Positions 54,001 through 57,000 of a stretch of DNA of 64,000 nt are shown piece by piece (position 1 is the first letter of the stretch; the number at the start of each line of letters is the position of its first letter). Source of the DNA: a virus (Duplodnaviria; Heunggongvirae; Uroviricota; Caudoviricetes); IMG/VR virus record IMGVR_UViG_2703718787_000017. One strand, written 5' to 3'. The position numbers were made by a program.

Positions 54001-57000
54001 TCACGGCGCTAGTGCCTGCAATTATGGAGGCTATCCGGATTAATGATTTCAGGTTGTATCGTGAAATTAGTGACGGAAAAAGCATCACGTACATGATCGC
54101 CGGGTTAAACAAAGAATATGGCGATGTGGTGGAGTCCGGACTGCTTTTTGCTGATCCTGCCGTAGTGGATCGTGAAACTGACGAACTTATAGAAAAAGCA
54201 ATTGCTTTCAAACTTGCGTATCGACAGCAATACCAACAAAAAGCTGGATGGAATTATGAGCCTTCTTTTTGCTGAACGCCCACTGGTTATAAACACACAG
54301 CTTGCGATGAAGATTGGCTTAAATGAAGCCATTGTGTTGCAGCAGTTGCATTACTGGTTGAGAGATACCAATTCCGGTATGGAATGTGATGGTGTTCGCT
54401 GGATTTACAACACAACGGAACAATGGCTGGAACAGTTCCCATTCTGGTCAGAGTCAACGTTAAAGCGCGCGTTTGCAAGTCTGAAAACGCTGGGGCTTTT
54501 GCGTTGTGAAAAGCTCAATAAATCAAAGCGCGATATGACCAATTTCTACACGATCAACTACGGGAGCGAGCTTTTAGATGATGGCAAATTGAGCGAATCC
54601 ATCGGTTCAAAATGCGCCGCTCCATCAGGTCAAAATGACACGATGGAAGAGGTCAAAATGAAACGCTCCATTGGTTCAAAACGATCCAATGTCATCGGGT
54701 CAAAATGGCCTGATGATCTTACAGAGAATACAACAGAGATTACTACAGAGAATAAAAACACTTTTCGTCCGGAAGCTTCGCAACCGGACCCGCAGACGAC
54801 TGAACAGGATTTTTTAACCCGGAACTCCGACGCGGTTGTGTTTAGTGCGAAAAAACGCCAGTGGGGTAGCAGGGAGGATTTGGCGTGTGCGCAGTGGATC
54901 TGGGGGCGGATCGTGGGCCTCTACGAACAGGCAGCCAGTGATGATGGCGAGATCATGAGACCAAAAGAGCCTAACTGGACTGTCTGGGCCAATGACGTGC
55001 GCACAATGCGGATGCTGGATGGCAGAAGCCACAGACAAATTTGCGAAATGTTTGGTCGGGTTCAGCGAGATCCATTCTGGGTAAAAAACATCATGAGCCC
55101 GTCAAAGCTCCGCGAAAAATGGGACGAACTGGTCATCCGCCTGGGACGTTCACCTGTACAGCGTTGTGTTAATCATATTTCTGAACCGGATACAGAAATT
55201 CCGCCTGGTTTCAGAGGATAAGTGTTGATTTCAGGTCATGAGGTAATTTTAAGGGGGACTTGTGGCAAAAGTTTTTACACAAGAAGAGCGGGAAAAAATT
55301 AAAGGGCAGGTGGTGGAACTCGTGCGCCAGAGCGGTCGTGAGACGTTACGGCAACTGGAAGCTAAAACAGGTGCGACTAGATATCTGATGAGCGTTCTTG
55401 CCAGAGAGCAGGTAGCCAGTGGCGATGTATACAACTCCGGCTACGGGTTATTCCCGTCTGAACAGGCGCGTAAGGACTGGCAAAACGCCCGCAAAAAACT
55501 CTCGAGGGCAAAGGTGAAGAAACCTGCTGTGGTTGATCCGGACCTTATCTGGTCATTACCTGACGGAGAAATACGCCGCTACGACAGTCGTCTAAACATA
55601 ATCTGTCGCGAGTGCCGGAAGAGCGAAGTTATGCAGCGTGTTCTGACGTTTTATCAGGGGAATTATCGGGAGGTGATGCTGTGAGTACATCGGCTACCAT
55701 TCTCGACATGTGCTGTGGCAGTCGCATGCTCTGGTTCGATAAGAATGACGAATGGTCGATATTTAGCGATATCAGGAAAGAGGAACATTCGCTATGTGAT
55801 GGACGTCACCCGATTATTAATCCCGACATTATCGCTGATTTTCGTGCGCTGCCGTGGTTGTCTGCTTTGCATCAAAAGCAGACATTACCAGATTTAGACA
55901 TCTGTTTCCGATAGCCCGTTCTGATGCTACACTTTTTGCTATTTTCATGAACCTCATAAACACATTTATGACTGTTGCTGATTTCAAACGCCCCAAATTG
56001 GAGCTCCCAAACGGGGCAAAAAAACTATTACTGCACTCTTGCTGTGCTCCATGTTCCGGTGAAGTGATGGAGGCGCTTCAGGCCTCGGGAATCGACTACA
56101 CCATCTTTTTCTACAACCCGAACATTCATCCTCAGAAAGAGTATTTAATTCGTAAGGATGAGAATATTCGCTTTGCTAAACAACACGGCGTGCCATTTAT
56201 TGATGCTGATTACGACACAGACAACTGGTTTGAGCGAGCCAAAGGAATGGAATGGGAGCCTGAACGAGGGATCCGTTGTACCATGTGTTTTGACATGCGT
56301 TTTGAGCGGACTGCACTGTATGCCGCTGAAAATGGTTTCAGTGTGATCAGTAGCTCACTGGGCATTTCACGCTGGAAAAATATGCAGCAGGTTAACGACT
56401 GTGGACGGCGAGCCGTCGCGCATTATCCGGGCATGGTGTACTGGGATTATAACTGGCGAAAACAGGGCGGCTCTTCCCGCATGATTGAAATCAGCAAGCG
56501 CGAACAATTCTATCAGCAGGAATATTGTGGCTGCGTGTATTCACTGCGCGATACCAATCTACACCGCAAATCTCAGGGACGCCCTCTAATCAAAATTGGT
56601 CAACTGCACTACGGTAAGGAAGGACAGGAATGATTTTATATTATGCCAACGGAGCGTAGCAGTGTTTCTATATATAGTACGCCTACCTTAATTTTCAAAT
56701 AATCATGATTAATGAGCAGGTCATCAGTGCAAGCAATGACCTGCTCATCTTGTTGAAATTAGAGGAAATCTTGCAGCCATGATATGGCTTAAAATAACGT
56801 TTGATTATTTTACCTGCTGTTTGTCCCTGGTTTAAAGTCGGTTGTCTGATTTGATTACGCGCAACTGACGCTTACGTATTGAAGTAACGAGCACGAAGAC
56901 ACATATTTATCAGTGCCTGTATACGTCAAGAGCAGGAGATTTATGTGCTGGTTCTCAAATGCACGCTGGCTATTGTGGCTGTAATGGCAATTTATTGTCT

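What the first reader, a model, noticed from the sequence alone, without database searches (positions are those of the whole stretch)
55681..56633. Prophage-borne queH (DUF208) following a truncated methyltransferase-like ORF
Seen: a 78-codon ORF with a SAM-methyltransferase motif-I-like start (ILDMCCGSRM) ends prematurely and is followed by a complete QueH-type gene with the [20 protein letters not shown] cysteine pattern. Known: QueH is the alternative epoxyqueuosine reductase of the queuosine tRNA pathway; phages carry 7-deazaguanine pathway genes for tRNA or DNA modification. Inference: a modification cargo gene acquired by replacement of part of a methyltransferase gene, potentially affecting host tRNA queuosine status or phage DNA modification.
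Basis: partly seen in the sequence, partly recalled or inferred. Interest (0 to 1): 0.6.

Follow-up and report, generated by a model that had tools for sequence, protein, structure and literature searches.

The report
Prophage-carried queH beside a broken methyltransferase
An E. coli lambda-like prophage carries an intact, already-annotated copy of queH, the vitamin-B12-independent enzyme for the last step of the tRNA base queuosine. It sits next to the dead stub of a phage DNA methyltransferase gene; this is a real but fairly ordinary cargo gene that probably backs up the host's B12-dependent QueG.

Summary
Window 55968-56633 encodes a full-length QueH (Pfam PF02677, E=1.7e-65). It keeps all six cysteines of the solved T. 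maritima enzyme and the family-typical CCAPC motif. Window 55681-55914 is the first ~58 codons of a ~160-aa phage DNA methyltransferase that has lost its DPPH catalytic motif.

RefSeq already annotates both features this way in identical E. coli genomes, in a Qin-type lambdoid prophage next to rspB that is also found in E. coli B REL606 and phage HannyBb.

- **Spread:** queH occurs in 1047 of 5426 complete E. coli genomes. In every context inspected it lies after the DUF977 (Ren-like) gene, usually just before hok/sok, a slot that holds AbiU-like or SIR2 genes in sister prophages.
- **Origin:** it came from an Enterobacteriaceae chromosome together with its own extended -10 promoter.
- **Selection:** it evolves under strong purifying selection (dN/dS 0.02-0.06).
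- **Redundancy:** queG is present in all 5426 genomes, so QueH is a second, cobalamin-independent epoxyqueuosine reductase.
- **DNA modification:** no other queuosine or dpd genes accompany it, so a DNA-modification role is unsupported.
- **Methyltransferase stub:** only 71-72 genomes carry the methyltransferase junction, so it is a secondary recombination scar, not the capture event.

Known family, known kind of prophage cargo; modest interest.

The parts
55262..55684 (+). DUF977 / LygF (Ren-like) gene; conserved left border of the variable cargo slot
   Evidence: Pfam PF06163 E=6.5e-29; PHROG 142 'Ren-like exclusion protein'; RefSeq 'DUF977 family protein'.
55681..55914 (+). Truncated phage DNA methyltransferase ORF (77 codons). 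Only about 55681-55855 is methyltransferase-derived; the last ~19 codons read into backbone and cassette DNA
   Evidence: Homology to full-length 157-164-aa methyltransferases ends at window ~55847-55855. Motif I (ILDMCCGS) is present and motif IV (FDPPH) is lost. PHROG 954/11564 match residues 3-61 only. RefSeq pseudogene.
55853..55869 (.). Phage-backbone boundary motif CGTGGTTGTCTGCTTTG, the point where methyltransferase homology stops and cargo-slot DNA begins
   Evidence: The same motif precedes the queH cassette in O104:H4/ST131 prophages (L008, L009). It also precedes a different cargo in CRE444 (L093, AbiU-like AIPR protein) and in viral contig L168; sequences diverge right after GCTTTG.
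55925..55933 (+). Extended -10 promoter element TGcTACACT, about 35 nt upstream of the queH start; the native queH promoter, captured with the gene
   Evidence: It is the only upstream block conserved with chromosomal queH loci of Scandinavium, Kluyvera and Enterobacter (A5). TGnTAnnnT lies at -39 to -52 in 7 of the 8 closest chromosomal loci, against 5% of random 76-nt windows. Function is inferred, not shown.
55968..56633 (+). queH: epoxyqueuosine reductase QueH, 221 aa, intact
   Evidence: Pfam PF02677 E=1.7e-65, full length. PDB 7LC5 E=5e-22, with Cys25/26/104/107/187/189 aligned to Tm Cys9/10/87/90/169/171. CCAPC is the family norm. 80-92% identical to chromosomal QueH of Enterobacterales. 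dN/dS 0.02-0.06. RefSeq WP_001595803.1 'epoxyqueuosine reductase QueH'.
56634..56875 (+). Downstream flank that travels with queH (probably donor-derived); it contains a 13-bp-stem hairpin at 56712-56748 and a near-copy of the boundary motif at 56840-56853
   Evidence: Shared at 86% with the divergent GPEC1356 queH context (window 55920-57046). Deleted in the O104/ST131 type (window 56640-57011 missing). Hairpin dG -22 kcal/mol, z -2.5. Repeat D2 GGTTGTCTGATTTG. Homology to queH-less prophages resumes at 56876 (L093) or 56902 (L094).
56945..57034 (+). 29-aa hydrophobic small ORF belonging to the phage backbone; right border of the cargo slot
   Evidence: Translation VLVLKCTLAIVAVMAIYCLVIVLMDHLSD. 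Conserved in L093 and related to annotated WP_001278450.1 in L007.
57058..57401 (+). mok/hokD/sok type I toxin-antitoxin locus, the conserved right neighbour
   Evidence: Rfam sok RF01794, 115 bits; RefSeq hokD; homology to many lambdoid and Stx phages begins here.

Best explanation
This is a solo queH gene carried as a 'moron' (an extra, self-transcribed cargo gene) in a Qin-type lambdoid prophage of E. coli.

**How it got there.** About 1 kb of Enterobacteriaceae chromosomal DNA was captured into the variable cargo slot between the Ren-like DUF977 gene and the hok/sok locus. The captured piece holds the native extended -10 promoter, queH and a downstream hairpin. It has since spread and diversified among E. 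coli prophages. In the lineage seen in this window, a later recombination or deletion fused the first ~58 codons of a small phage DNA methyltransferase to the backbone motif that precedes the cassette. That left a dead methyltransferase stub.

**What it most likely does.** QueH is expressed from its own promoter in the lysogen. It uses its [4Fe-4S] cluster and adjacent iron site to reduce epoxyqueuosine (oQ34) to queuosine (Q34) on host tRNA-Asp, -Asn, -His and -Tyr, without cobalamin. The core E. coli enzyme QueG needs cobalamin, which E. coli cannot make de novo. The prophage therefore makes the last step of queuosine synthesis independent of B12 supply, analogous to the MetE/MetH pair.

**Shown here:** gene identity, intactness, origin, distribution, purifying selection, redundancy with queG, and the absence of partner queuosine genes.

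**Inferred:** promoter activity, enzyme activity in E. coli, and any fitness benefit.
For: - **Identity.** Pfam QueH E=1.7e-65 over the whole profile. PDB QueH 7LC5 E=5e-22 with all six cysteines aligned. CC[AGS]PC occurs in 110 of 114 diverse family representatives. The protein is 80-92% identical to QueH of Scandinavium, Kluyvera, Enterobacter, Erwinia, Providencia and others. In the three of these checked (Scandinavium, Kluyvera, Enterobacter) the gene sits among ordinary metabolic genes.
- **Public naming.** NCBI and UniRef name this exact sequence QueH.
- **Selection.** dN/dS among prophage alleles is 0.02-0.06, the same as against chromosomal orthologues (0.03-0.04). dS among prophage alleles is 0.04-0.46, against >=1.0 to any sampled chromosome.
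- **Own promoter.** TGnTACA(C/A)T is conserved at a fixed distance upstream in chromosomal loci and is retained in the phage copies.
- **Redundancy.** queG is present in 5426 of 5426 complete E. coli genomes, including the carrier REL606. QueG-type reduction in E. coli is cobalamin-dependent (PMC4646009, citing Frey 1988), and QueH is the cobamide-independent alternative (PMC6461909). S. aureus also keeps both enzymes (PMC13443448).
- **Cargo slot.** The same position holds an AbiU-like AIPR protein, a SIR2 protein, or other small genes in sister prophages.
- **Methyltransferase stub.** establish the truncation. The junction lies at the backbone motif.
Against: - No expression or activity data exist for this copy. 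The promoter call is a consensus-and-conservation argument, and the generic promoter scan did not flag it.
- There is no obvious Shine-Dalgarno sequence, although chromosomal homologues lack one too.
- No phenotype is known for oQ versus Q in E. coli (my own knowledge), so the selective benefit is unexplained.
- In the gut, B12 and cobamides are usually available.
- Part of the low dN/dS could have accumulated in donor chromosomes if the three prophage allele types were captured independently.
Confidence: 0.65

Rival explanations
1. QueH serves the phage during lytic growth rather than the lysogen. It would be transcribed with the early-right operon (cro-O-DUF977-queH) and would complete Q34 on host tRNAs so that NAU/NAC codons in phage genes are translated efficiently.
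For: The gene is co-oriented with the pR operon and lies just downstream of the replication genes. The complete genome of the deposited phage HannyBb keeps it.
Against: The gene brought and kept its own promoter. It also persists intact, under strong purifying selection, in decayed prophages such as REL606 Qin, where the integrase is frameshifted and IS elements have inserted. Bulk tRNA modification within a short lytic cycle would change little.
Confidence: 0.12
2. QueH is part of phage-phage or phage-host conflict, acting as a defence or counter-defence gene. Changing oQ to Q at tRNA position 34 would protect against, or sensitise to, anticodon-targeting nucleases or superinfecting phages.
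For: The slot is a hotspot that holds an AbiU-like AIPR protein and a SIR2-family protein in sister prophages. It is bordered by a Ren-like exclusion gene and by hok/sok. A 2026 preprint links queuosine to phage resistance in Shewanella (listed; not read).
Against: QueH has no PADLOC match. The protein is an unmodified housekeeping-type orthologue, 90% or more identical to Enterobacter chromosomal QueH, with no extra domain or partner gene. Cargo slots of this kind also carry non-defence genes.
Confidence: 0.08
3. QueH contributes to 7-deazaguanine modification of the phage's own DNA.
For: Phages are known to carry preQ0-pathway genes for DNA modification (my own knowledge; PMC5372724 mentions 7-deazapurines in DNA).
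Against: No DpdA/TGT-like transglycosylase, QueC, QueD, QueE, FolE or QueF is annotated in the prophage or in the complete HannyBb genome. QueH acts after QueA, on epoxyqueuosine in tRNA. No epoxyqueuosine-containing DNA is known.
Confidence: 0.02
4. The gene is a neutral hitch-hiker, or is decaying along with the cryptic prophage.
For: It lies beside a pseudogene. Plasmid-borne queH copies in E. coli are frameshifted fragments.
Against: The ORF was intact in every prophage copy inspected. dN/dS is 0.02-0.06 across alleles that differ at up to 0.46 synonymous substitutions per site. It is present in 985 genomes at >=80% coverage.
Confidence: 0.05

Closest known systems
QueH (DUF208, Pfam PF02677), the cobalamin-independent epoxyqueuosine reductase; solved structure T. 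maritima TM0731 (PDB 7LC5)
   Same: Full-length profile match, all six cysteines aligned, same length class, and 80-92% identity to chromosomal QueH of other Enterobacterales.
   Different: It is located in a prophage cargo slot rather than on the chromosome backbone. It has Cys where T. maritima has Asp13, but Cys is the family norm. Activity of this copy is untested.
[quoted passage not shown]
   Same: Same reaction (oQ34 to Q34 on tRNA), and both are present in the same cell.
   Different: The two proteins are not homologous. QueG needs cobalamin (PMC4646009) and QueH does not (PMC6461909). QueG is a core gene (5426 of 5426 genomes) while QueH is accessory (1047 of 5426).
Lambdoid prophage morons and the DUF977-to-hok cargo slot (for example relBE next to hokD in K-12 Qin, from my own knowledge; AbiU-like and SIR2 genes here)
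   Same: A single foreign gene with its own promoter and a downstream hairpin, inserted between conserved backbone genes. Sister phages carry alternative cargo at the same point.
   Different: The cargo is a tRNA-modification enzyme rather than a toxin-antitoxin, defence or surface-protein gene.
Phage 7-deazaguanine DNA-modification clusters (DpdA with FolE/QueD/QueE/QueC)
   Same: Both draw on the queuosine pathway.
   Different: Those clusters act on DNA through preQ0-type bases and always include a transglycosylase. Here there is only the last, tRNA-specific enzyme and no partner genes.
Bacteria that naturally keep both QueG and QueH (for example S. aureus); the MetH/MetE pair
   Same: A B12-dependent and a B12-independent enzyme for one step within one genome (PMC13443448; PMC6461909).
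   Different: In E. coli the independent enzyme is supplied by a prophage and only in about one strain in five.
Small phage DNA methyltransferases (PHROG 954; RefSeq 'class I SAM-dependent / TRM11 family methyltransferase', 157-164 aa)
   Same: The N-terminal 58-62 residues, including motif I, are 62-71% identical, and the ORF has the same translationally coupled GTGA start after DUF977.
   Different: It lacks residues ~60-160, including the FDPPH catalytic motif, and ends in unrelated read-through sequence.

Membership tests
QueH (PF02677, epoxyqueuosine reductase) | Full-length match to the family profile above the curated cut-off | tested here: met
   220.8 bits against a 23.5 cut-off; profile positions 1-174 of 175.
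QueH (PF02677, epoxyqueuosine reductase) | Conserved metal-binding cysteines (CCxPC near the N-terminus, CxxC in the middle, CGC near the C-terminus) | tested here: met
   C25, C26, C29, C104, C107, C187 and C189 are present. Six of them align with Tm C9/C10/C87/C90/C169/C171. CC[AGS]PC occurs in 110 of 114 diverse representatives.
QueH (PF02677, epoxyqueuosine reductase) | Sequence relationship to an experimentally solved QueH | tested here: met
   7LC5/7LC7/9DEU E=5.4e-22, residues 20-196 against 4-178. No fold prediction was run.
QueH (PF02677, epoxyqueuosine reductase) | Catalyses oQ-tRNA to Q-tRNA without cobalamin | not testable with these tools
   Needs LC-MS of tRNA from queG/queH mutants.
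QueH (PF02677, epoxyqueuosine reductase) | The host supplies the substrate (tgt and queA present, so oQ-tRNA is made) | not tested
   Established for E. coli (PMC5372724, PMC9508795). Only queG was checked here.
Small phage DNA methyltransferase (PHROG 954) | SAM-binding motif I | tested here: met
   ILDMCCGSRM is conserved with full-length relatives.
Small phage DNA methyltransferase (PHROG 954) | Catalytic motif IV (FDPPH) and the C-terminal half | tested here: not met
   Alignment A7: homology ends at residue ~58 and DPPH (residues 70-73 of relatives) is absent. It is a pseudogene fragment.
Phage 7-deazaguanine DNA-modification system | A DpdA/TGT-like transglycosylase plus preQ0 synthesis genes in the same element | tested here: not met
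   None is annotated in the prophage or in the complete HannyBb genome.
Prophage moron | A foreign gene between conserved backbone genes, absent from sister phages | tested here: met
   Breakpoints lie at ~55855/55870 and ~56876-56902. Sister prophages carry other cargo in the same slot.
Prophage moron | Own promoter and terminator allowing expression in the lysogen | tested here: inconclusive
   There is a conserved extended -10 element and a downstream hairpin without a U-tract. No transcript data are available.
Anti-phage defence system (PADLOC) | Match to a known defence protein model | tested here: not met
   QueH gave 0 PADLOC families.

The most novel reading that the evidence does not exclude
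queH may be kept in a prophage defence and exclusion hotspot because the oQ/Q state of tRNA position 34 matters in phage-phage or toxin conflict. It could, for example, protect lysogens from anticodon-targeting nucleases or handicap superinfecting phages. On that reading, a housekeeping tRNA-modification enzyme has been recruited as an immunity or counter-immunity factor. A milder version is more likely: about one E. coli strain in five, including E. coli B/BL21, ST131 and O104:H4, has a prophage-conferred, B12-independent queuosine pathway. Those strains would then differ from K-12 in tRNA oQ/Q content in B12-free media.
Probability: 0.08. Interest if true: 0.7.

Novelty: already known. Interest (0 to 1): 0.3.

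Why it matters
If the prophage copy is active, the final step of queuosine synthesis is cobalamin-independent in about 19% of sequenced E. coli. That group includes laboratory B strains (REL606/BL21) and major pathogens (ST131, O104:H4). K-12 would instead accumulate epoxyqueuosine whenever B12 is absent. That would be a simple, testable case of a prophage changing the host's tRNA modification state. It would also be a hidden variable when comparing translation or tRNA-modification data between B and K-12 strains. The enzyme family, its reaction and the moron style of carriage are all already known, and the gene is already correctly named in RefSeq, so this does not open a new kind of biology.

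Tried and rejected
- **Upstream ORF as a complete small protein.** Rejected: relatives are 157-164 aa, homology stops at residue ~58-62, and DPPH is missing.
- **Riboswitch (for example preQ1) or other RNA element controlling queH.** No Rfam hit between 55600 and 57076, even at E<=1.
- **Hairpin at the left junction (55859-55884; dG -18.4, z -3.95) as a functional terminator or recombination site.** Its arms are not conserved in the O104/ST131 allele, so I treat it as incidental.
- **14-nt direct repeat (55856-55869 and 56840-56853) as a target-site duplication of a mobile cassette.**
  - The left copy turned out to be phage-backbone sequence that also precedes a different cargo.
  - No right-hand copy was found in the AIPR-type prophage.
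  - A scan of viral contigs for the motif returned mostly unrelated chance hits, and only about 11 of roughly 120 loci were lambdoid relatives.
  - The meaning of the right-hand copy remains unexplained.
- **Identifying the exact donor.** The nearest chromosomal loci (Scandinavium 85.6% nt, Kluyvera, Enterobacter) share only the coding region and the promoter block, so the donor is unsampled or the capture is old.
- **Plasmid-borne queH matches in E. coli (~70% identity).** The one inspected in full is a frameshifted fragment next to IS remnants, unrelated to this cassette.
- **Literature.** Searches for QueH or epoxyqueuosine reductase with prophage or BL21 found nothing describing this prophage gene. 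The two key QueH papers (Zallot 2017; Li 2021) are not held in the library, so statements about them come from memory or from citing papers.
- **Generic sigma-70 scan.** It did not flag a promoter upstream of queH. The extended -10 element was found only by comparison with other loci.
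Full report
**1. What is in the sequence.**

The region lies in the early-right arm of a lambdoid prophage. Reading rightward, the genes are:
- a cI-like repressor (53058-53516, minus strand), then cro, a YdaT-like gene and an O-like replication gene (54202-55221);
- a DUF977/LygF 'Ren-like' gene (55262-55684);
- the 77-codon ORF (55681-55914);
- queH (55968-56633);
- about 400 nt of non-coding DNA;
- a 29-aa hydrophobic ORF (56945-57034);
- mok/hokD/sok (57058-57401), then rem, DUF968 (ydfU) and the Q antiterminator.

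The window is 99.99-100% identical to E. coli STEC2018-607 over this stretch. It is 99.5% identical to the Qin-type prophage next to rspB in E. coli B REL606, and 99.7% identical to the deposited 45-kb phage HannyBb.

RefSeq already labels the two features 'methyltransferase, incomplete, missing C-terminus' and 'epoxyqueuosine reductase QueH'. NCBI and UniRef give the exact protein sequence the same name, and it has been seen on about 1000 contigs.

**2. The QueH gene is real and intact.**

- Pfam PF02677 matches end to end (E=1.7e-65).
- The solved T. maritima QueH (7LC5) aligns over residues 20-196 (E=5e-22). All six of its cysteines are conserved: window C25, C26, C104, C107, C187 and C189.
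- T. maritima has Asp13 where the window protein has Cys29. That is the family norm: among 114 diverse cluster representatives that include this motif, 110 have CC[AGS]PC and only 3 have CCAPD.
- The protein is 92% identical to QueH of Scandinavium and about 90% identical to QueH of Kluyvera and Enterobacter. It is 80-88% identical to QueH of Symbiopectobacterium, Erwinia, Providencia, Proteus, Photorhabdus, Serratia and others.
- In Scandinavium, Kluyvera and Enterobacter the gene lies among ordinary metabolic genes, not in phages.

**3. The upstream ORF is a dead methyltransferase stub.**

Its GTG overlaps the DUF977 stop codon (GTGA), just as the full-length methyltransferase gene does in sister prophages. 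Those full-length proteins are 157-164 aa. They belong to PHROG 954 'DNA methyltransferase' and carry FDPPH at residues 69-73.

The window ORF matches them only to residue ~58-62, which at the DNA level is window ~55847-55855. It then reads through unrelated DNA to a stop at 55912-55914. That test is not met, so the truncation reading stands.

**4. How the cassette is built and where it came from.**

queH is much more common in E. coli than this window suggests. A blastn search finds it in 1047 of 5426 complete genomes, 985 of them at full length. Only 71-72 genomes have the methyltransferase junction.

*The common allele.* The main allele is 93.5% identical at the DNA level and occurs in ST131, O104:H4 C227-11, some O157:H7 and APEC strains. 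It sits in a Rac-like prophage next to ompW, in the same slot after DUF977 and before hokD, with no methyltransferase remnant. The two types share window 55853-56639. The common type lacks window 56640-57011, apparently through a deletion between TGATTTTAT and TTCTTAT.

*A third allele.* A third type (strain GPEC1356) shares window 55920-57046 at 86% identity and has different neighbours. The ~250 nt downstream of queH, including the 13-bp-stem hairpin at 56712-56748, therefore travels with the gene.

*The upstream block.* Upstream of queH, the only block conserved with chromosomal queH loci is (A/G)TGCTACA(C/A)T, at window 55924-55933. This is an extended -10 promoter element about 35 nt before the start codon. 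TGnTAnnnT occurs at -39 to -52 in 7 of the 8 closest chromosomal loci, against 5% of random windows.

The cassette is therefore native promoter + queH + downstream flank, lifted from an Enterobacteriaceae chromosome. Prophage alleles are closer to each other (dS 0.04-0.46) than to any sampled chromosomal gene (dS >=1.0). That fits one capture, or captures from a single unsampled donor lineage, followed by diversification in the prophage pool.

**5. The methyltransferase break is a secondary scar.**

The 17 nt at the junction (CGTGGTTGTCTGCTTTG, window 55853-55869) is not donor DNA. The same motif precedes the queH cassette in the O104/ST131 type, about 60 nt after a shared post-DUF977 backbone segment. 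It also precedes a completely different cargo in strain CRE444 and in viral contig L168, and the sequences diverge immediately after GCTTTG.

In the window the methyltransferase's codon ~58 is joined straight onto this motif. The simplest history has two steps:
- queH first entered the slot of a phage without a methyltransferase remnant;
- a later illegitimate recombination or deletion then joined a methyltransferase-bearing backbone to it.

A near-copy of the motif (GGTTGTCTGATTTG, 56840-56853) lies 22 nt before homology to queH-less prophages resumes. I could not tell whether that is meaningful.

**6. The slot is a variable cargo site.**

Between DUF977 and hok, sister prophages carry:
- a 591-aa AIPR protein that matches AbiU;
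- a SIR2-family protein;
- a full-length methyltransferase plus a 158-aa unknown protein;
- DUF551 genes.

K-12 Qin has relBE next to hokD (my own knowledge). QueH itself matches no PADLOC model. PHROGs holds the protein as phrog_3217, 'unknown function', with a profile that starts at Met34 and so omits the CCAPC motif.

**7. What it most likely does.**

queG is present in all 5426 complete E. coli genomes, including REL606, so QueH is always a second enzyme for the same step. Reduction of oQ to Q in E. coli is cobalamin-dependent and is carried out by QueG/YjeS (PMC4646009, citing Frey 1988 and Miles 2011). QueH is the cobamide-independent alternative (PMC6461909; PMC5372724). E. coli does not make cobalamin de novo (my own knowledge).

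dN/dS among the prophage alleles is 0.02-0.06, the same as between prophage and chromosomal orthologues. The ORF is intact even in the decayed REL606 prophage. The gene is therefore being kept for its function.

The best-supported mechanism is moron-type expression from the captured promoter, followed by B12-independent completion of Q34 on host tRNAs. Enzyme activity, promoter activity and the selective benefit are all inferred.

**8. What it is not.**

- No dpdA/tgt-like, queC, queD, queE or folE gene is annotated in the prophage or in the complete HannyBb genome, so a DNA-modification role is very unlikely.
- No riboswitch or other Rfam element lies next to the gene.
- The plasmid copy inspected in E. 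coli is an unrelated, frameshifted fragment.

**9. Novelty and verdict.**

The enzyme family, its reaction, the idea of paired B12-dependent and B12-independent enzymes, and moron carriage in lambdoid prophages are all established. This exact gene and the methyltransferase pseudogene are already correctly annotated in RefSeq.

Several points do not appear in the literature I could search:
- the prophage context of queH;
- its 19% prevalence in E. coli;
- the co-captured promoter;
- the consequence that E. coli B, ST131 and O104:H4 may differ from K-12 in oQ/Q status without B12.

This is a tidy, testable point of modest interest. I score interest 0.3, with novelty 'already known'.

Noticed in passing
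window 33713-40294: A 6582-bp insertion inside ynfE, absent from the otherwise 99.99%-identical genome STEC2018-607, with a 15-bp overlap at the joints. It encodes a 534-aa tyrosine integrase (PF00589) and three + strand ORFs (379, 185 and 332 aa) with no Pfam or PADLOC match. It looks like a small integrative element with unknown cargo.
   Followed up: partly
window 55853-55869 and 56840-56853; L008 8885-8901; L093 ~159-175; L168 2884-2898: A short backbone motif, CGTGGTTGTCYGCTTTG, marks the left edge of the cargo slot in several lambdoid prophages that carry different cargo. The window also has a 13/14 near-copy near the right edge of the queH cassette. It could be a module-boundary recombination sequence; its significance is unresolved.
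   Followed up: partly
L093 417-2192; L094 1514-2473; L006 4645-5121: The same slot, after DUF977 and before hok, holds an AbiU-like AIPR protein, a SIR2-family protein or an unknown 158-aa protein in sister prophages. The slot behaves as a defence and moron hotspot.
   Followed up: partly
window 56945-57034 (+): An unannotated 29-aa hydrophobic ORF (GTG start, VLVLKCTLAIVAVMAIYCLVIVLMDHLSD) lies immediately upstream of mok/hok/sok. It is conserved in CRE444 and related to the annotated 34-aa WP_001278450.1 in another prophage.
   Followed up: partly
L218 (E. coli GPEC1356) 1958-4120: A third, more divergent prophage context for queH (222 aa, 86% nt identity to the window). It is flanked by a minus-strand hypothetical gene and a DUF1971 gene instead of hok. 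This may be a larger or independent capture.
   Followed up: partly
L010 (plasmid pZ1323HEC0393-2) 2319-2693, plus about 60 other E. coli plasmid matches: E. coli plasmids carry queH-like matches at ~70-75% identity in 62 places. The one inspected in full is a frameshifted, N-terminally truncated pseudogene next to repB and IS remnants.
   Followed up: no
window 29172-29257 and 29708-29792 (-): Two Rfam sRNA-Xcc1 matches (74.5 and 53 bits) lie near the end of a second prophage. That prophage is Stx-phage-like, with an N4-gp56-type capsid. It fills roughly the first 30 kb of the window and abuts a ynfG remnant.
   Followed up: no
window 51821-51872 (-), 57077-57251 (+), 60546-60969 (+), 63447-63831 (+): Expected prophage RNA elements are present: DicF, sok, and two cspA-type thermoregulator leaders in front of cspB and cspI.
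   Followed up: no
PHROG phrog_3217; phage HannyBb PP925841 33011-33697: Phage resources do not recognise this gene. The PHROG family is labelled 'unknown function', and its profile starts at Met34, so it omits the CCAPC motif. HannyBb annotates the gene as 'hypothetical protein', starting from an upstream in-frame ATG.
   Followed up: no
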